A stretch of 64,000 nucleotides of DNA from Eledone cirrhosa. Taxonomy: Eukaryota. The position numbers and the translations under genes are program-made. This document shows positions 8,288-45,943 of this stretch, piece by piece (the first letter of the stretch is position 1; each line of letters opens with the position of its first letter). The stretch lies in NCBI GenBank assembly GCA_964016885.1, contig OZ024740.1:177196001-177260000 (forward strand), written 5' to 3'. The notes below the pieces were generated by a model that saw only the letters and a program-made list of their open reading frames with translations, made no database searches and had not been told where the DNA came from.

Positions 8288-9283
8288 TATAAATTAATAT
8301 GTAAGTGATGAAACACAGATACCAACACATCTGTATATATATTGCAAAAGAAAAATTTAGCCAGATTGAAGTATACTAATTATTATACTACAGTTTGTCC
8401 ATATCGATTTAAAATAATAAATCAACGGAGACGAACTGTATTGGCAAAAGGCCGTGATGTTTAGACACATTTAAATTTCAAAATCAAACCTGTTCCGTAG
8501 ATAAGTTTAGACTTTAAGATCCAAATATGTTTCGAATTAAATAAGTGTAGGAATATCATGTCCCGCTCTCCTCAGTAAACATCCAGAGACAAATTGATAT
8601 GCTTCACTTCTAAATGATTTTAAAGACTGCGTGTCGCACATGGCTTTACAGTATCTAACTGGTCTCATAACCGAACTGCTAGAAATAACAGTCGTATATA
8701 TGAGACGGTTTGCAGCTCAAACTAGGAGCAGTTAAAATTAATAAGGTAATGAATTCTTTTACAATGGAATCGGCTCGAATGAGGAAAAATATCCCCTGAG
8801 CAGTGTATAAATTAATATGTAAGTGATGAATTTTAACTGCTCCTAGTTTGAGCTGCAAACATATTAATTTATACACTGCTGAGGGGATATTTTTCCTCAT
8901 TCGAGCTGATTCCATTGTAAAAGAATTCATTACCTTATTAATTTTAACTGCTCTTAGTTTGAGCTGCAAACCGTCTCATATATACGACTGTTATTTCTAG
9001 CAGTTCGGTTATGAGACCAGTTAGATACTGTAAAGCCATGTGCGACACGCAGTCTTTTAAATCATTTAGAAGTGAAGCATATCAATTTGTCTCTGGATGT
9101 TTACTGAGGAGAGCGGGACATGATATTCCTACACTTTTTTAACTCGAAACATATTTGGATCTTAAAGTCTAAACTTATCTACGGAACAGGTTTGATTTTG
9201 AAATTTAAATGTGTCTAAACATCACGGCCTTTTGCCAATACAGTTCGTCTCCGTTGATTTATTATTTTAAATCGATATGGACA

Positions 9284-9284
<1 letters not shown>
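8288..9284. mobile_element. ORF-less 518-nt HHR monomer (retrozyme-like) with inverted copy
   Basis: Direct repeat at 8288 and 8806 (period 518); inverted arms 8395-8820 and 8859-9284; (TA)n on both sides. Confidence 0.8.
9099..9174 (+). ncRNA. Type I hammerhead ribozyme (mirror copy on - at 8505-8580)
   Basis: Stem I GTTTA/TAAAC, CTGAGGA, stem II GAG/CTC, GAAAC...GTC. Confidence 0.7.
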
Positions 9285-9370
<86 letters not shown>

Positions 9371-9371
<1 letters not shown>

Positions 9372-10807
9372 CGGCGATGAATTAGTTTTGCGAGGTTTTT
9401 TATATGAAATCGTGTGTCGAAACAAATATTGTTATACTTGGGGAGGGTCATATTTGTGTAATATTGCCAGAATTAATAACAGAACACACTCACTGTTTGG
9501 TTGGTTTTCGCTTTTCGCTTCTGTGTCTTTTATATCGGTAATCTAATTTATTCGGTCCTCAATGTTGCCATTAACTGACCAACGGTCAAAAATAATACAG
9601 ATACAATATAGACACGAACACATATATATAGTTTATCAAAGTTCTTTCGTTGCACATCTGCAACATCGTCAGTGGTGCTCTAGATTCCTCCCGTTACATT
9701 GTATTTCTACGCCATCTTTATTTAGTCTGTTTATATATTTATTTATTTGTTTGTTTGTTTATTTTATTTTGTCTTCTTTGCGCATGCGTTTGCGTGTGTG
9801 TATAGTGTTTTGTTTGATGTGTGTTCGTGATTGGGTGACTGTGTATTGGTTAATGTATTCTATGTTTACTAGTGTGTGTTTATGTGTTTGTTGTTATTGT
9901 GCTTGTGTATGTATTTATTTATTTATTTATTTATATATTTATTTATTTATTTATACTTCTCTTAGGTCAGTGTTGTTTGTTTGGGTGTTGTTCTTATTCC
10001 ATTCATTCTTTCTGTTTAGTCTTGGCCTTCTAAGTTCTATTTCGCTGGCTATCTGCTGGGTCATTTCTATGTTTAGATATTATTCTAATTTCTATGTTGT
10101 CTATGTTACCGTCGTGTTTTTGTCTGGCATGTTCGTATAGTACTGACCTGTTTACTCGTCCTTTTAGTCCCCCCCCCCCCAGTGTTGGTCTATCCTTTCA
10201 CCTATGCTACGAGCTGTCTCGCCTATGTATGTTGTTGTCATGTTTCTGCAAGTACCCTCTGTACATCTTATGCTATAGACTACGTTTCTAGTTTTACAGT
10301 TTATCCGGGGGTTTACCTTACATATGATACATTTCCTATTGGTACAGTGGGTTTTCTTAAAAGGGTAGGTTTTGCTGATCAGGGATTTTATGGTGGTTCC
10401 TGGCTTTTCTACCACCTCAATCTTTAAGTGGGTCCTTCTCAGGGCCTTTCTACACTGGTTAGCTAATTTCCCTCCAGGGGTAGCGTCCACAAACATGAAA
10501 CTCTGGTATCTCTAGTTGTCGTACCATGAGGTGGCTTTCCCTATCTTATGTCTAGCCCTATCTAAGCTATTCCAGGGTTTGATCCTGTATAATGGGCAAA
10601 TTCCTTTCATGTCCAGTTCTATGAGGGTCTTATACTTCTCCATGGCTCCTTCGTATACTCTGACTCTGTCTCTTTGGTTGTAGCCAGAGAACTGCATGCG
10701 GTTGATGAAGTGTTGGATGTGTTTTTCCATTTCTGTTGGGTCGCATATGCGGGACACATTCTTCATCACTCGTACCAAATCTGCGATCAGAATATTAAAC
10801 TTAGCAC
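9371..10807 (-). mobile_element. 5'-truncated Penelope-like element (RT thumb, Cys-rich linker, GIY-YIG, 3' HHR)
   Basis: ORFs 10512-10778 (FINRMQFSGY) and 10164-10496 (C..C..C..C, NVVYSIRC...YIGETARSIGERIDQH), continuing to LNRKNEW; 3' end at (TA)n. Confidence 0.85.
9635..9676 (-). ncRNA. Minimal hammerhead ribozyme in the PLE 3' region, partly degenerate
   Basis: CTGACGA, stem II GTTGCA/TGCAAC, GAAA; stems I and III weak. Confidence 0.6.
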
Positions 10808-11554
10808 TACTTGATCGTTTTTTTTGGCTATGCGAATGATTGTTTAACCATCGTCTCAGTGTGTTTGGCGTTTAACGTTTGTTATAGCTCTGGTTTATAT
10901 GAACCATTGAGCACTTGCCTCACATCTCGGAGGTTGTTTTTCGTTATGCGAATCTCGATCATTTATGTTTGTATTTATCCCCAGACTCTAGCTATTGACC
11001 AGTTAATTTTCTTGATTTTTTAGTTGATTCTATTGACTGATGAATAACTTATGTTAATTTTAACCCTTCTGTTGAGAACTCTATTCGATTTGTGATGTTT
11101 TTGCATTCTTGCAAACATATACACAACTGAATTTATTCGCCTGATATAGGGGCTGCCTCCCTTGCCGATCCCCACGTGGAGTCAGCAATAGTCAGTCCTT
11201 GTATTAACATTGAACTAAAACCTGTTGAGAAAGTGGCTTCCTTGTTCAATCATCTTACCAGAAGCCTGACATTATTTATGTAAGCGGACGGTACTTGATT
11301 TAGGAGCCGCAGAAACCCAAATACTGGATTTTACCAACCATCCAGGGGTCCGGTTAAATTTTCAATACCCGAATTACTTGATCATGTTTTTGGCTATGCG
11401 AATGATTGTTTAACCATCGTCTCAGTGTGTTTGGCGTTTAACGTTTGTTATAGCTCTGGTTTATCTGAACCATTGAGCACTTGCCTCACATCTCGGAGGT
11501 TGTTTTTCGTAATTTCATGGGCCGAAATGCGAATCTCGATCATTTATGTTTGTT

Positions 11555-11555
<1 letters not shown>
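10808..11555 (+). mobile_element. ORF-less ~581-nt monomer family, 1.3 tandem copies, with variant HHR
   Basis: Direct repeat 10808-10972 vs 11375-11553; homologous in opposite orientation to 17998-18747 and 45241-45943. Confidence 0.85.
11219..11355 (+). ncRNA. Variant hammerhead ribozyme (U3-A8 core TTGAGAA), long stems II and III
   Basis: TTGAGAA 11225-11231; stem II GTGGCTTCCT/AGGAGCCGC; GAAA 11312-11315; stem III CCC/GGG plus CTGGAT/ATCCAG; GTC; stem I AACCTG/CGGTT (imperfect). Confidence 0.7.
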
Positions 11556-11586
<31 letters not shown>

Positions 11587-14710: not shown

Positions 14711-15205
14711 CATACTCATACACACACACATATATATACACACACACACATATACATATGGACTTTCCAATTTTATTTTACATTATATACATATCAGTGC
14801 ATATTTTGATTATTTAAAAATTATTTTTAAGTGAACATGATTTTAAAAAATATTTCTAAGTGAACATGACCCACCGAGTCATGGATGGCCTAGTATATAT
14901 ATATATATTTTTTTTTTTATCTAGGCCACCCATGTTATATATACAGATATGTGCATATATGTATGTATGTATATTTTTATATGTATATATATATGTGTGT
15001 GTATGTGTGTATTTCCTTTTCTCACTAGTCAGTTCTTTCGTTGCTACAGATCACGCGGCTAAATTAGCAGTCGCTATTTTTTATTTGCAAAGCCCTTTAA
15101 ACTGTATGTTATTATTCTGAGGTCTATTCCTTGTCGAGTGTTTGGCTCCACTACTGAAAGCATTCGTTGGCTTAGCTGCTGATCGAACTTCGATTATGCT
15201 GTACT

Positions 15206-15246
<41 letters not shown>

Positions 15247-15252
<6 letters not shown>

Positions 15253-15827
15253 TGAAACAAAACGAAAACGAAACTTCACCTCTCACTCCTAGTATGGCAC
15301 TTACTTAAATGTAAGTATGCATGTATACGTACATACATATATGTATACAGACGTACAGTAGCATGCACATATATATATATACATATACATATGCATACAG
15401 GTACACATACATATATGCACGTATCAGTTTAGCGGCGCTTATTATAACGTCGCTTTGTTCGTTTGTAAACAAACTGAACAGCCTGAATTTATGCCATACG
15501 GTGTTAAGGCAACCACGTCACCTTTTTGTTCAACACTGACACAGGAACGATGTACTAGTTTCAAGCTTGTTAGCTATCATCAGCACCGTTTACCCATCTG
15601 CCAGATAGTTGAACGTTCGAAAGTATATACTTTCCTTATGAAAATTAACGGCTGAGCAGCCTAATTTGCATATTGAGTGAGTTAAATCGGTCAGGCATAC
15701 CGAAAACGATAAATTGAAACAAAACGAAAACGAAACTTCACCTCTCACTCCTAGTATGGCACTTACTTAAATGTAAGTATGCATGTATACGTACATACAT
15801 ATATGTATACAGACGTACAGTAGCATG

Positions 15828-15861
<34 letters not shown>

Positions 15862-16368
15862 CATATGCATACAGGTACACATACATATATGCACGTATCA
15901 GTTTAGCGGCGCTTATTGTAACGTCGCTTTGTTCGTTTGTAAACAAACTGAATAGCCTGAATTTATGCCATACGGTGTTAAGGCAACCACGTCACCTTTT
16001 TGTTCAACACTGACCGGTATGCCTGACCGATTTAACTCACTCAATATGCAAATTAGGCTGCTCAGCCGATTTAACTCACTCAATATGCAAATTAGGCTGC
16101 TCAGCCGTTAATTTTCATAAGGAAAGTATATACTTTCGAACGTTCAACTATCTGGCAGATGAGTAAACGGTGCTGATGATAGCTAACAAGCTTGAAACTA
16201 GTACATCGTTCCTGTGTCAGTGTTGAACAAAAAGGTGACGTGGTTGCTTTAACACCGTATGGCATAAATTCAGGCTGTTCAGTTTGTTTACAAACGAACA
16301 AAGCGACGTTATAATAAGCGCCGCTAAACTGATACATGCATATATGTATGTGTACCTGTATGCATATG

Positions 16369-16401
<33 letters not shown>

Positions 16402-16914
16402 GTGCATGCTACTGTACGTCTGTATACATATATGTATGTACGTATACATGCATACTTACATTTAAGTAAGTGCCATACTAGGAGTGAGAGGTGAAGTTTC
16501 GTTTTGTTTCAATTTATCGTTTTCGGTATGCCTGACCGATTTAACTCACTCAATATGCAAATTAGGCTGCTCAGCCGTTAATTTTCATAAGGAAAGTATA
16601 TACTTTCGAACGTTCAACTATCTGGCAGATGGGTAAACGGTGCTGATGATAGCTAACAAGCTTGAAACTAGTACATCGTTCCTGTGTCAATGTTGAACAA
16701 AAAGGTGACGTGGTTGCCTTAACACCGTATGGCATAAATTCAGGCTGTTCAGTTTGTTTAGAAACGAACAAAGCGACGTTATAATAAGCGCCGCTAAACT
16801 GATACGTGCATATATGTATGTGTACCTGTATGCATATGTATATGTATATATATATATATATGTGCATGCTACTGTACGTCTGTATACATATATGTATGTA
16901 CGTATACATGCATA

Positions 16915-16918
<4 letters not shown>
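15247..16918. mobile_element. Retrozyme-like 462-470-nt tandem monomers in a head-to-head array
   Basis: Units start at 15247 and 15709; inversion at 16014/16015; opposite-strand units with period 470; one minimal HHR per complete unit; (TA)n on both sides. Confidence 0.9.
16166..16210 (+). ncRNA. Minimal type I hammerhead ribozyme (identical copies 16636-16680 + and 15546-15590 -)
   Basis: AACGGTG CTGATGA T AGCT-AACA-AGCT T GAAA CTAG TA CATCGTT; palindromic stem III ACTAGT. Confidence 0.92.
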
Positions 16919-17011
<93 letters not shown>

Positions 17012-17012
<1 letters not shown>

Positions 17013-17691
17013 ATACAAAATGTTGAGAAGGTAACACACTAGAGAGATACAGTGCGCCATCAATAAAACAGGGAAAAACCACCAGTGTATGGAATCTATA
17101 ACCTTATGAAAGGCAGGGTAGACACGCGATAATTAAAAATATAAATTAAAGTGTATATACAAACCTCTATAACGATATAACACACGTACAAATCCAAAGA
17201 GATCGGTTTCGCCAATAATTTGACAGAAATAAATAGCCCATGGTTCATCAGCGTGTGTAAGGCTATACATTTCAGACAACTCTAAGAGAATATAAAGCGC
17301 GTGTTTAGGGCAGGGAACCAGTGGTGTCTGAGGGACGAACTGCTAGAAAGGGCAGACCAAAACCACTCAGTGAAGTGTGCTCAACCAAACAGAGAGAGAG
17401 GAGCGAAATACCACGATAGATTAACGGAGCCATAGACGTTCGCTATTCCATGTCAATAATGTGCTCAAAGGAGAAGGAATCCTGAGCTCTTTAAAATACA
17501 ATATGTTGAGAAGGTAACACACTAGAGAGAGATAGTGCGCCATCAATAAAACATTTATTGATGGCGCACTATCTCTCTCTAGTGTGTTACCTTCTCAACA
17601 TATTGTATTTTAAAGAGCTCAGGATTCCTTCTCCTTTGAGCACATTATTGACAGGGAATAGCGAACGCCTATGGCTCCGTTAATCTATCGT
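17012..17691. mobile_element. ORF-less 483-nt HHR monomer with fold-back
   Basis: Direct repeat at 17012 and 17495 (period 483); 138-bp inverted arms 17413-17550 and 17554-17691; (TA)n flanks. Confidence 0.85.
17180..17258 (-). ncRNA. Type I hammerhead ribozyme
   Basis: Stem I ACACACG/CGTGTGT, CTGATGA, stem II CCA/TGG, GAAAC...GTA. Confidence 0.8.
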
Positions 17692-17899: not shown

Positions 17900-18747
<848 letters not shown>

Positions 18748-24895: not shown

Positions 24896-25513
24896 GTGTT
24901 AAACGATATTGACTGATTATGTCAAAGAATGATTTTTTCAGTAGATTGAAAGCACTCTAAGGACAAAATAATTTTCCAGAGTTATTAATATTAAAATATA
25001 AATATTAATAAAATCGATGTTCTTTTGATCAATTATATTTTATTATACATATTTCAGATGTACGTCCTCATCAGAAAAAATATAATGATCCATGACGTAC
25101 CCTGAGATGCTAAAGGGTTAAGATTTAATCAAGGTAGTGATTAACCTGAGAGAAACTTTTACTTATATAGCCTAATTATGAGAAAATGCGAAAACGTAAT
25201 AAATTCATTAGAGAATGTGTGAGTAAGAAAAAAACGTTGCTTACTGTAACTTCTAAAAAATGTAAAATGTATGATACTACGATATATCTAGGAAAAAGTC
25301 TCATGAATCATAACAGCCAGTGATAGCCACTGGAAAAGGATTTATAAAGAGGGAAAGATAAAGGGTGGGGGTGGGGTGATATATGTAGAAGGAGATTTTT
25401 TCCGAAAGTTAAACGGTTAAATTTGAAAATATTTAATTTATAATATTAGAAAAATAGCGATATATATATATATAAATATACCTGTAAACATATGTATATA
25501 TTTATCTATGCAT

Positions 25514-25553
<40 letters not shown>

Positions 25554-27046
25554 GTGTTAAACGATATTGAATGATTATGTCAAAGAATGATTTTTACAGT
25601 AGATTGAAACACTCCAGATTTCAGGATTATTTGCTGGTTATTTATATATTATTTTTATAAATTCGATAAGTGTGTTATCATTTCTAAACTTCTGAATTTT
25701 ATGAGGGTAACATTTAAAGGATTTAGCTGGCACATACAGGATGAAATATTATACTGTTGATTATGTACCTAAATTTAAACTTTAACAAAAATATCAACAT
25801 ATTAGGTATGTAAAGCTTTTGAAGTACTTATCATTATAAATATTTAAATAACTATTATGTATATAAGGTATATATTAATGAGCCAGTATGTTTAAGGTAA
25901 ATAATAACGACGAAGATAAAAATAAAATAAGATAATAGATTGAAGGTTAAGGATAAATATACACCTATGTATAATTGGGTGTAGATGTACTAATTATTCT
26001 TCAACCAAGATATCAACATATTATTAGATATAGGGAGGTATATATATAGATATATATTAGGTATTAGTAGTGTAGTATACTTTAGGTAAATGATAACAGT
26101 TATAATTTTATAAAGTAGAGTTCAACATGTTACATTTAAATACACACATATATATATAAGAGAAACAATAATGAGTGCATGGATAATTCAGAGTTCAAAT
26201 AAAGTCTATTTTTAGTTTGGATATTTTCTCTATATTTGAATCATATATATAGAAATGTGGTAGGTATATTTTAAAATATTTAAGAATATATAAAATATAA
26301 TATAAAACTACATAAATATTATAATACATTATATTATAAATAAGAGATCAAAAGCGCAGCAAAAATTCACATTTATATATAAGTTTGAATCTGTCCTAAA
26401 TTTTAGATTTTAAAGTGCAGTAAATATATTTAAGAGAAATATATGCATATACTATATTATATTATACTATAAATAAGAGATCAAAAACTCATTAAAAATT
26501 CACAGTTATAGATAAGTTTCATAAAAATTCATGGATTGGGTATTAAACTAAAATTTAAAATAGATAAAAAATGTATTCAAAATTCACAGTTATAAATAAA
26601 TTCCGTGAATATGTAAGGATTAGGTATTATAATAAATTGTAAGCATAGATAGGAAGATAGATAGAGAAATAAAGAAATGATGGTATTTATCAAAGTTAAC
26701 AAAATAATGTTATGTGTATCAATGTTCCGGCATGTTATTGAACAAGTGTCATTCATTCTAGCTTTGTTTCTTCTATAGATAGCTATACAATAGGCCATTA
26801 ATGTTTTTCACTGTTGATTATATATTCCTGGTAACCGAGTTATTATTGGTTTGGTGTTATTGCGTCTTTTTTTCTCGTTTTATGTGAGGCTAAAAAAGTG
26901 GACGTAGCTTTATGGAGGCAACTAGAGAATAATTCACTTTTTTTGTTAATTAGGGTCTCGTAGTTATTAATAATCAACAGGGTCTCCATTGTACAGATAA
27001 CGAATTTTGGACACGCTCAGATAGAGATAGAAACTTTGATATCACT

Positions 27047-28342
27047 ATGGGGGCATCTGATTCCGCGCAAATCACAGATCTTCTGGGAATTTTCATATTA
27101 AACATGATAAATAGAAAACTGCCGGAGATTACCGGTGGTTTATATAGGGACGACATTTTATTTACAGTGGTCAAACACAACAATATAGAACTAAATAGAG
27201 TTAAAAAAAGTATAATTGAATTCTTTAAAACGTACGACCTTAAATTAGAAGTAGAAAATGGTTCCAAAATAGTTTATTTCCTTGACGTTACCTTTAACTT
27301 AAACACCGGCTTCTATTACCATTTTCATAAGCCTAATGAAAACTTAAATTATGTTAGTAACTATTCAAATCACCCTAGATCTGTAAAAAAGCTATAGTAA
27401 ATAGTGTCCCAAAACGTATTAATAAAATATCAGCTAATAAAGATATATTTTATAAAAATCGCTGAATACTACAACAACGCGTTAAAAAGAGCAGGATATA
27501 TGAATAATATTGAATATGTAGATAATAATAATCCAAGTATTATTCCTAATAATAATAATAAAAATAATAACATATATAAGAGAAACTCTAATAATTATAA
27601 TTCAAACACCCATACGCTAAATAAATCGAGAATACGAACTAGATCTAAACCAGTCATATGGTTTGCACCCCCTGCTTCGGTCGCAGTTAAAACACTAATT
27701 GCAAAATTATTCTTTAAACATAAATACCATTCCATTTTTAATAGACATACCATTAAATTCTCAAATTCTTCAACCAGTAATATGGCCCAAAACATTGCCA
27801 AATTAAACGCCAAAATCCTAAAACCAAACCTGAATAATGATCATAATAATAGAGTTAACATAAATGATACTAAACCAAAATGTAATTGTAGAAATAAAAC
27901 TAATTGCCCTTTGCAAAATAATTGTTTAGATATTAATTTGGTTTATAAATGCACCGTAAAAACAGATCACAAAACATACAACTACATAGGTTCGACCTCG
28001 TCCACATTCAAAGCCCGTTTTGCGAACCATAAAAGCTCATTTTCGAACTCTAAGAGGAAATCATCCACGTCTTTATCACAGCTAATATGGTCGTTAAAAG
28101 AGAAGATTTTAAAATTCTCCATTCTTTGGACAAAACTTCGGAACTGTGGAATTTACCGCAACTCTAGTATATCAAATAACTGCCCGCTCTGTACAATGGA
28201 GACCCTGTTGATTATTAATAACTACGAGACCCTAATTAACAAAAAAAGTGAATTATTCTCTAGTTGCTTCCATAAAGCTACGTCCACTTTTTTAGCCTCA
28301 TATAAAACGAGAGAAAAAGACGCAATAACACCAAACCAATAA
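27047..28342 (+). pseudogene. PLE reverse transcriptase C-terminal half plus GIY-YIG endonuclease
   Basis: MGASDSAQITDLLG, GLYRDD, FLDVTFNL, SNHP; CNCRNKTNCPLQNNC; LVYKC...YIGSTSSTFKARFANH; CPLCTME; frameshift near 27400. Confidence 0.9.
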
Positions 28343-29166
28343 TAACTCGGTTACCAGGAATATATAATCAACAGTGAAAAACATTAATGGCCTATTTTAT
28401 AGCTATCTATAGAAGAAACAAAGCTAGAATGAATGACACTTGTTCAATAACATGCCGGAACATTGATACACATAACATTATTTTGTTAACTTTGATCAAT
28501 ACCATCATTTCTTTATTTCTTTATTTCTCTATATCTCTTCTTATCTATGCTTACAATTTAGTATAATACCTAATCCTTACATATTCACGGAATTTATCTA
28601 TAACTGTGAATTTTTAATACATTTTTTATCTATTTTAAATTTTAAATTTTAGTTTAATACCCAATCCATGAATTTTTATGAAACTTATCTATAACTGTGA
28701 ATTTTTAATGAGTTTTTGATCTCTTATTTATAGTATAATATAATATAGTATATGCATATATTTCTTTTAAATATATTTACTGCACTTTAAAATCTAAAAT
28801 TTAGGACAGATTCAAACTTATATATAAATGTGAATTTTTGCTGCGCTTTTGATCTCTTATTTATAATATAATGTATTATAATATTTATTTATATATTCTT
28901 AAATATTTTAAAATATACCTACCACATTTCTATATATATGATTCAAATATAGAGAAAATATCCAAACTAAAAATAGACTTTATTTGAACTCTGAATTATC
29001 CATCCACTCATTATTGTTTCTCTTATATATATATATATGTGTGTATTCAAATGTAACACGTTGAACTCTACTTTATAAAATTATAACTGTTATCATTTAC
29101 CTAAAGTTTACTACACTACTAATACTAAATATATATCTATATATATACCTCCCTATATCTAATAAT

Positions 29167-29348
29167 TGTTTCTACTTTAGGCACAAGGCCAGCAATTACC
29201 CAGTGCATTACTGGTACTTTATTTTATCGACCCCGTAAGGATGAAAGGCAAAGTCAACCTCGGCGGGATTTGAACTCAGATCGTAAAGGGACGTAACTAT
29301 GCTGGAAAGCATGGCGTCCGACCCTCTACCGATACTGCCAATCCACCG
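29167..29348 (-). mobile_element. Complete tRNA-derived SINE with 16-bp target-site duplication
   Basis: CCCTATATCTAATAAT at 29151-29166 and 29349-29364; A/B boxes on -; absent from the mirror arm near 26020-26035. Confidence 0.92.
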
Positions 29349-30133
29349 CCCTATATCTAATAATATGTTGATATCTTGGTTGAAGAATAATTAGTACATC
29401 TACACCCAATTATACATAGGTGTATATTTATCCTTAACATGCTTCAATCTATTATCTTATTTTATTTTTATCTTCGTCGTTATTATTTACCTTAAACATA
29501 CTGGCTCATTAATATATACCTATATACATAATAGTTATTTAAATATTAATAAGTATTTCAAAAGCTTTACATACCTAATATGTTTAATATTTTTATTAAA
29601 GTTTAAATTTAGGTACATAATCAACAGTATAATATTTCATCCTTTATGTGCCAGCTAAATCCTTTAAATGTTACCCTCATAACATTCAGAAGTTTAGAAA
29701 TGATAACACACTTATCGAATTTATAAAAATAATATATAAATAACCAGCAAATAATCCTGAAATCTGAAGTCTTCCCCCTAATATTATAAATTAAATATTT
29801 TCAAATTTAACCGTTTAACTTTCGGAAAAAATCTCCTTCTAGATATATCACCCCACCCCCACCCTTTATCTTTCCCTCTTTATAAATCCTTTTCCAGTGG
29901 CTATCACTGGCTGTTATGATTCATGAGACGTTTTCCTAGATATATCGTAGTATCATACATTTAAATTTTTTAGAACAGTTACAGTAAGCAACGTTTTTTT
30001 CTTACTCACACATTCTCTAATGAATTTATTACGTTTTCGCATTTTCTTATAATTAGGCTATATAAGTAAAATTTTCTCTCGGGTTAATCACTACCTTGAT
30101 TTAATCTTAATATCTCAGGGTATGTCATGTATC

Positions 30134-30196
30134 ATTATATTTTGTCTGATGAGGACGTACTGTTGTACATCCGAAATATGTATAATAAAATGTAAT
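30134..30196 (+). ncRNA. Hammerhead ribozyme at the PLE 3' end (mirror copy ~25031-25086 on -)
   Basis: 12-bp stem I ATTATATTTTGT/ATAAAATGTAAT, CTGATGA, stem II GGACGTAC/GTACATCC, GAAA TATGTA TA; overlapping AATAAA. Confidence 0.85.
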
Positions 30197-30245
30197 TGAT
30201 CAAAAGAACATCTATTTTATTAATATTTATATTTTAATATTTATA

Positions 30246-30285
<40 letters not shown>

Positions 30286-30803
30286 AAAGAATAGAGGTGT
30301 AACACACAAGTTATTATATATTGGTAAACGGAATAGAAAATGCTGACAAATTGTTCACAGTTGGAAAATGGTTTAATTAGGAATAAAAGAGTATTAGTGA
30401 TTGTATGGGTTAGTATTCAGTTGTGGTTTTAAGTTTTTAAGTTTTTACCGGTTGCGCATTTCTAAATGCTTTTCAAAAATAATTTTGAGATAGAGTGTCC
30501 GTGCTGTTTGCTCTGATCTGATTAGTTTTGGGAATTCTACCTAAAATGGTAGAATTCCCAAAACTAATCAGATCAGAGCAAACAGCACGGACACTCTATC
30601 TCAAAATTATTTTTGAAAAGCATTTAGAAATGCGCAACCGGTAAAAACTTAAAAACTTAAAACCACAACTGAATACTAACCCATACAATCACTAATACTC
30701 TTTTATTCCTAATTAAACCATTTTCCAACTGTGAACAATTTGTCAGCATTTTCTATTCCGTTTACCAATATATAATAACTTGTGTGTTACACCTCTATTC
30801 TTT

Positions 30804-30873
<70 letters not shown>

Positions 30874-30930
30874 TATAAATATTAAAATATAAATATTAAT
30901 AAAATAGATGTTCTTTTGATCAATTACATT
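30190..30930. repeat. Near-perfect palindrome centred at 30542-30547
   Basis: 30281-30541 mirrors 30548-30808 with no visible mismatch; symmetry continues through (TA)n into the last ~60 bp of the neighbouring PLE. Confidence 0.9.
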
Positions 30931-30940
30931 ATATATATAT

Positions 30941-45180: not shown

Positions 45181-45240
<60 letters not shown>

Positions 45241-45246
<6 letters not shown>

Positions 45247-45943
45247 CAGCGAGATCGTATTTCGGTGGTGGCCAAAAACAAAACGGAACGCAAATTTCGA
45301 GACATGCGGAAGCGCTCAATGGACTAAAAGAAGACCAGAACAATTAACATACGTTATAGAGTCCAGACAAAATGAAAACTGTGGTCGTGAATCTATCAGC
45401 CAACCGAGCCAAAAAAAAACGAAGTAAGCTAAACAGGTTAACAAAACAATTTACCTGTTTCTGACCTCCTGGAAATTGATGGTAGAATCCAGTGGGAGGT
45501 TTCTGTGACACCTAAATCAATTATACTGCCTGCTTTCGTTGTAAGCTTTTGGTATAACGATGGAACAAGGCTGCCATTTCGTCAACAGGTATTTTGTTCT
45601 CAGCCGGCCAGCAGGTTCTAATGCAGTAGTAAACTACCCCACGTGTTTACCCTGCAAGGGAGGTAACTCCGATTTTTGGCGGATGCATTCAGAATGTGTA
45701 AAAATATTGCAAGAATTGCAAAAAACAGCACAAATCGAATTAAGCTCTCGACCGGGTTATTTTTAAATAAACTTAAGCAATTAATCAGTCAATAGAATTG
45801 TCTAATAGAATTAACTAATTAATTGCTAGCCCCGGGAGATTAATACAAATATAATTTCAGCGAGATCGTATTTCGGTGGTGGCCAAACACAAAGCGGAAC
45901 GCAAATTTCGAGATATGCGGCTCAACATACGTTATAGAGGCCA
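45241..45943 (-). mobile_element. ~611-nt monomer family copy, 1.15 tandem units
   Basis: 45241 onward is repeated from 45852; homologous to the 11-kb and 18-kb copies; starts at (TA)n. Confidence 0.85.
45453..45590 (-). ncRNA. Variant hammerhead ribozyme
   Basis: ACCTG TTGACGA A; stem II TGGCAGCCT/AGGTGTCA; GAAA; stem III CCTC/GAGG plus CTGGA/TCCAG; TC; stem I register disturbed. Confidence 0.65.

What the first reader, a model, noticed from the sequence alone, without database searches (positions are those of the whole stretch)
9371..11555. Chimeric insertion: a coding PLE fused head-to-head to the variant-HHR monomer
Seen: one (TA)n-bounded block holds a 5'-truncated PLE on minus (9371-10807) joined directly, with no microsatellite or spacer, to 1.3 units of the ~581-nt non-coding monomer on plus (10808-11555). 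Both 3' ends face out. Inference: two different RNAs were reverse-transcribed at the two ends of one target cut, which would be physical evidence that this PLE family mobilises the retrozyme-like RNA in trans.
Basis: inference. Interest (0 to 1): 0.78.

Follow-up and report, generated by a model that had tools for sequence, protein, structure and literature searches.

The report
Two jumping genes fused head-to-head
A broken Penelope-type jumping gene and a small non-coding repeat with a predicted self-cutting ribozyme are joined back to back here, most likely because one inserted into the microsatellite beside the other and erased the spacer, so the joint does not by itself show that this jumping gene moves the repeat.

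Summary
In detail: a 5'-truncated Neptune-like PLE (minus, 9371-10811) meets 1.3 units of a 581-nt repeat (plus, 10808-11555) through a 4-nt overlap (TACT), 3' ends out, (TA)n outside. The repeat carries a U3-A8 hammerhead-like motif, and its 5' ends pile up just past the predicted cut (19 of 102). The inference is weak. A second PLE/monomer join exists (L090), but the same architecture also occurs with a distant Poseidon-like PLE (L136) and several other (TA)n families. In 6 of 13 such joins the halves differ significantly in divergence; 7 of 13 look age-matched, about the share of young neighbours across (TA)n tracts (38 of 67). Orientation is not significantly biased (13 of 20). The monomer's 5' join can delete target DNA (about 100 nt in L124). 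The PLE's usual second arm is itself (44 of 79); the monomer has none (0 of 151). Best reading: sequential insertion into one (TA)n tract with a microhomology join (0.55). One event with two RNAs remains possible (0.30), but would show promiscuous capture, not a dedicated partnership.

The parts
9284..9370 (.). (TA)n tract, left boundary and likely target
9371..10811 (-). 5'-truncated Neptune-like Penelope-like element (called PLE-A here): RT thumb, Cys linker, GIY-YIG-like endonuclease, 3' UTR; one premature stop, one frameshift
9371..9425 (-). Optional 3' tail of about 55 nt (second likely RT start site); most copies end at 9426
9639..9672 (-). Minimal type I hammerhead-like motif of the PLE (CUGACGA, 6-bp stem II, GAAA, predicted cut after CUU at 9639)
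   Evidence: motif scan, fold; activity untested
10808..10811 (.). 4-nt overlap TACT shared by both halves (6 of 7 with TACTnGA)
10808..11555 (+). 1.3 units of a 581-nt non-coding tandem repeat (retrozyme-like), fixed 3' end; 5' end 33 nt past the predicted hammerhead cut of the upstream unit
11221..11346 (+). Variant hammerhead-like motif: stem I CCTG 11221-24 with CAGG 11343-46, core UUGAGAA 11225-31 (U3-A8), long stem II, GAAA 11312-15, triplet AUC 11340-42
11555..11581 (.). (TA)n tract, right boundary

Best explanation
The block is a PLE fragment and a retrozyme-like repeat joined directly through a 4-nt overlap, most likely by two successive insertions into the same (TA)n tract in which the later one erased the tract. 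Shown: both families end in (TA)n, crowd into the same tracts, and form direct joins with many other families. Inferred steps: (1) one element, probably the PLE, inserted first; (2) a PLE-type endonuclease nicked the (TA)n beside its 5' side and reverse transcription started at the second element's fixed start site; (3) the cDNA, for the monomer copied to within 33 nt of its predicted self-cleaved 5' end, annealed by TACT(n)GA microhomology inside the neighbour instead of in the tract, deleting the tract and any sequence between; (4) repair sealed it. The monomer is likely moved by some PLE-type protein, but this locus does not name which.
For: Of 13 outward-facing direct joins (window included), 6 have halves of significantly different divergence: L136 10/1321 vs 24/780, p=1e-4; L113, L163, L322 p about 3e-4, L283 p=0.001, L259 p<1e-7. 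The age-matched share (7 of 13) equals the share of young repeats lying across (TA)n from a monomer's 5' end (38 of 67 repeat neighbours, 118 examined). Seven further direct joins have the partner's 3' end facing in, tract lost; 13 vs 7 is not a significant bias (p=0.26; classes). L124 is a monomer nested in a tRNA-like SINE with about 100 nt of target lost on its 5' side. This PLE sits within 100 nt of 5 of 151 monomers across (TA)n, in mixed orientations. The window site is a pile-up of repeats separated by (TA)n. PLE 5' joins by microhomology without a TSD are described in PMC3846280 (passages).
Against: This locus and L090 are both age-matched (p=0.63, 0.33). Partner ages rest on few sampled copies (6 to 23 for five discordant cases; 30 for L136), so subfamily structure could inflate them, and an RNA from an old source copy could mimic discordance. 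In two-armed PLE copies the far end is nearly always a true start site, and in L090 an internal PLE piece is capped by the monomer; sequential insertion there needs a deletion of up to about 1.6 kb. No head-to-head PLE/monomer pair with the (TA)n still present was seen (0 of 5 neighbours). The two selected PLE/monomer cases were found through a family co-eval with the monomer, so age has little power for them.
Confidence: 0.55

Rival explanations
1. One event, two RNAs: a PLE ribonucleoprotein (or two at one break) primed reverse transcription at both DNA ends, one on PLE RNA and one on monomer RNA, and the two cDNAs annealed at TACT. This is the first reader's model, as occasional promiscuous capture rather than proof of a dedicated partner.
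For: Two-ended insertion is the family's habit: 44 of 79, with one tailed and one untailed arm in 30 of 32 pairs (pairs, counted). Second arms do switch template (L222, L245, L262). Halves age-matched here and in L090. Monomer cDNA nearly complete to the predicted cut. PAc cleaves and extends both strands and is predicted dimeric (PMC11167929).
Against: Self-arms share rare variants 0.0029 per site vs 0.00017 +/- 0.00014 in 500 resamplings (38 pairs), so the second arm usually comes from the same source (gene conversion not excluded). No monomer has a second monomer arm (0 of 151). No excess of age-matched or outward joins. Same architecture with unmatched ages exists (L136).
Confidence: 0.3
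2. Two complete, independent insertions on either side of a (TA)n tract were fused later by a microhomology-mediated deletion, or by collapse of the tract, unrelated to either insertion.
For: The overlap contains TA; L043 starts at the same base after (TA)n; microhomology deletions in Penelope copies are reported (PMC3846280, passages); both halves carry small deletions.
Against: Pure tract collapse does not explain the extra CT and GA matches. Monomer 3' ends are almost never trimmed and fused (147 of 151 end in (TA)n; part of the sample was selected for an intact 3' motif), while 5' ends often are, which points to the insertion step.
Confidence: 0.11
3. Assembly artefact or templated repair (gene conversion) copied one half from elsewhere.
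For: No junction-spanning record was demonstrated in four public runs, of uncertain relation to this genome.
Against: Each half has its own private changes (10 and 9), ends at its natural 3' end in (TA)n, and similar joins recur with different breakpoints (L090, L136).
Confidence: 0.04

Closest known systems
Inverted (head-to-head) insertions of EN+ Penelope-like elements, Neptune clade (PMC8557442; PMC3846280)
   Same: 5'-truncated copy with an adjacent oppositely oriented 3' piece, optional tail on one end, (TA)n target without visible TSD, CX2-5CxxC linker before the GIY-YIG domain, hammerhead motif near the 3' end.
   Different: The opposite arm is an unrelated non-coding repeat, not the element's own 3' end; the tail is about 55 nt rather than 30-40; clade was not tested by a tree.
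Metazoan non-LTR retrozymes (PMC7229834; bioRxiv 10.64898/2026.07.22.740005)
   Same: Non-coding, low-GC tandem unit with one type I hammerhead-like motif per unit; dispersed monomers to multimers; coexists with PLEs.
   Different: 581 nt (the first paper's animal circles are about 170-400 nt; the preprint's range is 51-972); U3-A8 core with an A.A or C.A mismatch at the base of a very long stem II and an inserted hairpin in stem III; no detectable similarity to the pLTR region of the two PLEs tested; circular RNA and cleavage untested.
Poseidon PAc mechanism in vitro (PMC11167929)
   Same: Two start sites that give tailed and untailed ends downstream of the hammerhead; activity on both strands would explain two-armed copies.
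   Different: Different clade; use of a foreign RNA at the second end is not reported in the two of four parts read.
LINE-1 twin priming and retrotransposition-linked target deletions (recalled; search listing only)
   Same: Microhomology 5' joins, loss of target DNA, inversions.
   Different: Twin priming splits one RNA into non-overlapping parts; here arms each begin at a 3' start site.

Membership tests
EN+ Penelope-like element | RT followed by C-terminal GIY-YIG endonuclease in one ORF | tested here: met
   Copy L067 has one 492-aa frame with RYVDD and VVY..YIGET..H motifs; RVT_1 E=5e-5 to 3e-3, below cutoff; no Pfam GIY-YIG hit for this family; Atlas 0.95-0.98 to clusters, some carrying RVT_1, GIY-YIG and HTH_animal.
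EN+ Penelope-like element | Inverted or tandem terminal repeats with optional tail | tested here: met
   44 of 79 self-inverted; one tailed arm in 30 of 32 pairs.
EN+ Penelope-like element | Hammerhead motif in the terminal repeat | tested here: met
   Minus 9672-9639; below Rfam thresholds.
Neptune clade | CX2-5CxxC linker upstream of GIY-YIG | tested here: met
   HCTNRKCIIC; criterion from PMC8557442, which says Nematis shares it.
Neptune clade | RT phylogeny | not tested
Non-LTR retrozyme | Non-coding tandem repeat, one type I hammerhead per unit | tested here: met
   581-nt period, arrays up to about 3.9 kb; motif conserved in 32 rows, U3-A8 in 25, U3.G8 in 6; non-canonical core.
Non-LTR retrozyme | Self-cleavage | tested here: inconclusive
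   Indirect only: 19 of 102 5' ends lie 0-40 nt past the predicted cut vs 3 in the 40 nt before (p=9e-5 against uniform); a TA-rich spot at +12 may add to it.
Non-LTR retrozyme | Circular RNA expressed | not testable with these tools
   No raw RNA reads were offered.
Non-LTR retrozyme | Homology to the pLTR of its partner PLE | tested here: not met
   Local alignment scores to the 3' regions of PLE-A and PLE-B within the range of 50 shuffles; other PLE families not excluded.
Single two-ended insertion event | One TSD around the whole block, or empty-site allele | tested here: inconclusive
   (TA)n target hides any TSD; no relatives held; reads uninformative.

The most novel reading that the evidence does not exclude
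PLE proteins in this genome prime both ends of one (TA)n break and sometimes load a foreign RNA at the second end, so this block and L090 are single-event fossils of a retrozyme RNA being copied in trans beside a coding PLE RNA: the first physical record of PLE-driven retrozyme mobilisation, here with an unusual U3-A8 long-stem hammerhead.
Probability: 0.3. Interest if true: 0.7.

Novelty: new member of a known kind. Interest (0 to 1): 0.36.

Why it matters
PLE mobilisation of animal retrozymes is proposed from co-occurrence and pLTR similarity (PMC7229834; bioRxiv 10.64898/2026.07.22.740005), without junction evidence in the parts read. A proven one-event chimera would be direct evidence and would name a protein/RNA pair to test. 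As it stands the result is a caution: in (TA)n-rich genomes successive insertions can mimic such chimeras, and they occur with many partners. The lasting value is a testable set: two PLE families, a 581-nt repeat family with at least four subfamilies and a variant hammerhead whose predicted cut is marked by insertion ends, and listed chimeric loci for population typing.

Tried and rejected
Rfam at gathering and E-value thresholds: no ribozyme. Pfam on the window's two ORF pieces: nothing; PDB sequence search: nothing meaningful. CTGATGA at 11037 as the hammerhead core: rejected, not conserved in subfamilies B and C. The conserved GCCGAAATGCGAATCTCG near the 3' end as a hammerhead: no matching 5' core and a weak consensus fold. 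The single-sequence fold of the variant motif is no more stable than shuffles (z=-0.8); its support is comparative. Nesting of the monomer inside the PLE: no further PLE sequence in the window. L376 looked like a third chimera but has (TA)n and other DNA between. Hammerhead direction as a polarity check for partners was confounded by two-armed copies, so polarity rests on fixed (TA)n ends and reading by eye; L335 and L339 were left out as unclear, and SINE partners (L034, L039/L117, L052, L124) and partners without copies in my loci were left out of the 13 vs 7 count. Public runs: the junction was not shown in X1, X20, X21, X22 (at most 2 reads might cross); the relation of those samples to this genome is unknown, so no conclusion. 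A search for a coding PLE carrying the monomer's hammerhead in 1.6 Mb of fetched loci found none. Literature searches for such chimeras listed none; the preprint's supplements could not be seen.

Full report
Observation. The window lies at G000:C1:177196001-177260000 of a 3.0-Gb genome. Between (TA)n tracts at 9284-9370 and 11555-11581 sit two high-copy repeats. The minus-strand part translates to an RT thumb, a C-x4-C-x2-C linker and a GIY-YIG-like domain, with one stop and one frameshift. A longer copy has RT and endonuclease motifs in one frame, weak RVT_1 hits and Atlas neighbours at 0.95-0.98, some with RVT_1 and GIY-YIG. I call it PLE-A, Neptune-like by the linker criterion in PMC8557442 (passages seen). 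Twenty-eight of 29 other copies follow the window to 10811 and go on with GGACATTG; the last does so after a short duplication. Monomer copies read GAAT-TACT-TGATC, so the join is a 4-nt overlap, 6 of 7 if extended.

The monomer. The unit is 581 nt. Alignment of three subfamilies shows a type I hammerhead-like motif: CCTG, UUGAGAA, a long stem II, GAAA, and a UUC or AUC triplet before CAGG. In 32 diverse rows the 3-8 pair is U-A in 25 and U.G in 6, and the helix pairs hold in 23-32 of 32 rows with some double changes. U3-A8 cores are known from PLE hammerheads (PMC4209133, passages). The base of stem II is a mismatch and Rfam finds nothing, so activity is unproven. In 102 insertions from queries within the last 170 nt, 19 have their 5' end 0-40 nt past the predicted cut and 3 in the 40 nt before it, as expected if self-cleaved RNA is the template. 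The window copy stops 33 nt past that site. The predicted cut lies about 210 nt before the main 3' end in both the monomer and PLE-A, but the two share no detectable sequence.

How each family inserts. PLE-A copies were sampled by an exact 33-mer (3,036 hits; 100 listed, 87 rows examined, 8 ran off the locus): 44 of 79 have an inverted piece of themselves at the 5' junction, 19 a microsatellite and 16 other, at least two of which are also self-inverted on inspection. In 30 of 32 two-armed copies one arm has the 55-nt tail and the other not, which fits the two start sites found for a Poseidon PLE in vitro (PMC11167929, parts 1-2 of 4 read). The arms share rare variants at 0.0029 per site against 0.00017 for arms from other loci (38 pairs), so they mostly come from one source. 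Of 151 unique monomer insertions, 120 abut a microsatellite at the 5' end and none has an inverted monomer arm. A single start site could explain that, so it does not exclude PLE-A as mobiliser, but it argues against free pairing of two RNAs at one cut.

Other chimeras. Among about 135 PLE-A loci one more is joined to the monomer: L090, (TA)n - PLE-A minus - 285-nt internal PLE-A piece on plus - 1.2 monomer units - (TA)n, with different breakpoints. Among the 151 monomers none is joined head-to-head to PLE-A, but L136 has the same architecture with PLE-B, a Poseidon-like element at about 30% RT identity with a Pfam GIY-YIG hit. Further direct joins to other (TA)n-bounded families occur for the monomer (L055, L059, L158, L036, L113, L163, L322) and for PLE-A (L210, L283, L259). 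Seven joins have the partner's 3' end facing inward with the tract lost (L053, L154, L199, L048, L126, L246, L279). Thirteen against seven is not a significant bias (p=0.26). These classes were assigned by fixed ends and by eye, and unclear cases were left out.

Age test. One event requires equal divergence in both halves. The window passes (24/1157 vs 18/734, p=0.63) and so does L090 (7/836 vs 10/673, p=0.33), but PLE-A and the monomer are co-eval families (medians 1.4-2.3% and 2.1%), so this has little power. L136 fails (10/1321 vs 24/780, p=1e-4), as do L113, L163, L322, L283 and L259 (p from 1e-3 to below 1e-7). L059, L158, L055, L036 and L210 pass, some on short pieces. The matched share, 7 of 13, is what sequential insertion predicts, since 38 of 67 repeat neighbours across a monomer's 5' tract are young (a different, rough measure). 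Partner families were thinly sampled, which could inflate their apparent ages.

Is tract loss plausible? L124 is a monomer inside a tRNA-like SINE with about 100 nt of the SINE missing on its 5' side. PLE-A lies within 100 nt of 5 of 151 monomers across (TA)n, once with only about five TA units left (L330), though none of the five is head-to-head. PLE 5' joins by microhomology without a TSD are described for rotifer Penelopes (PMC3846280, passages).

Mechanism. Most likely (0.55) two successive target-primed insertions into one tract, the later cDNA annealing by TACT(n)GA inside its neighbour. One event with two RNAs keeps 0.30: two-ended priming is normal for PLE-A, second arms do switch template (L222, L245, L262), and L090 reads naturally that way. 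Later deletion has 0.11 and artefact 0.04. These odds are my judgement from the counts above. Public reads did not settle whether the junction or an empty allele exists elsewhere.

Comparison. Inverted 5'-truncated arms, tails and (TA)n bias are standard for EN+ PLEs (PMC8557442). PLE mobilisation of animal retrozymes is proposed from shared hammerheads and co-occurrence (PMC7229834, passages) and from pLTR homology (bioRxiv 10.64898/2026.07.22.740005, parts 1-3 of 5 read, supplements not seen). Five searches listed no report of PLE/retrozyme head-to-head chimeras. Earlier scan notes describe a different, 311-nt retrozyme in this genome as two-armed (unchecked AI notes), a contrast with this single-armed monomer.

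Verdict. Real structure, recurrent but promiscuous, and not specific evidence for trans-mobilisation by this PLE. The monomer is a new retrozyme-like family with an unusual hammerhead. Interest 0.36; 0.7 if single-event capture is shown.

Noticed in passing
L090 = G000:C4:52765724-52767854: Second PLE-A/monomer join with an internal inverted 285-nt PLE piece between the halves; 3-5 nt microhomology; both halves young. Best candidate for one-event capture.
   Followed up: partly
L231 / L136 = G000:C1:130111000-130119000: Poseidon-like PLE-B joined head-to-head to the monomer by a 2-nt overlap; halves differ fourfold in divergence. PLE-B is young (about 98% between copies) and has a conserved non-canonical hammerhead-like motif near its 3' end.
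   Followed up: partly
window 17997-18747 and 45206-45905 (minus); L264; L376:47-890: Older or divergent subfamilies of the same monomer (about 65-82% identity). Three share the 3' end motif and the variant hammerhead with compensatory changes; the fourth (L376, L358) was seen but not aligned.
   Followed up: partly
monomer copies, e.g. L033, L040, L145, L146, L156, L157: Fifteen of 151 5' ends fall exactly 12 nt past the predicted hammerhead cut, giving lengths near 205 and 786 nt.
   Followed up: yes
window 11343-11555 and 9426-9638: Predicted hammerhead cut to main 3' end is about 210 nt in both the monomer and PLE-A despite no sequence similarity; may be chance or a spacing rule.
   Followed up: no
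L147, L302, L068, L246: A sister Neptune-like family (about 58% RT identity) shares PLE-A's 3' tail region and a similar hammerhead; one copy is fused to PLE-A through 9 nt of microhomology.
   Followed up: partly
L152, L158, L159: A tRNA-like SINE has inserted three times independently at the same ATTATTT site inside the monomer.
   Followed up: no
window 8395-9284, 15205-17015, 24983-30245, 30181-30939: Many palindromic or two-armed (TA)n-bounded repeats; 8395-9284 is an 890-nt, 96% palindrome right beside the finding.
   Followed up: no
L069:2897-4795 minus: The PLE-A N-terminal region has a long asparagine-rich low-complexity stretch, recalling N-rich inserts in rotifer Penelopes (PMC3846280); this copy also has a (TA)n between a partial terminal repeat and the ORF start.
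   Followed up: no
G000:C12:17006000-17470000 (L002-L007): Six near-identical two-armed PLE-A copies about 60 kb or more apart, suggesting a large tandem segmental array.
   Followed up: no
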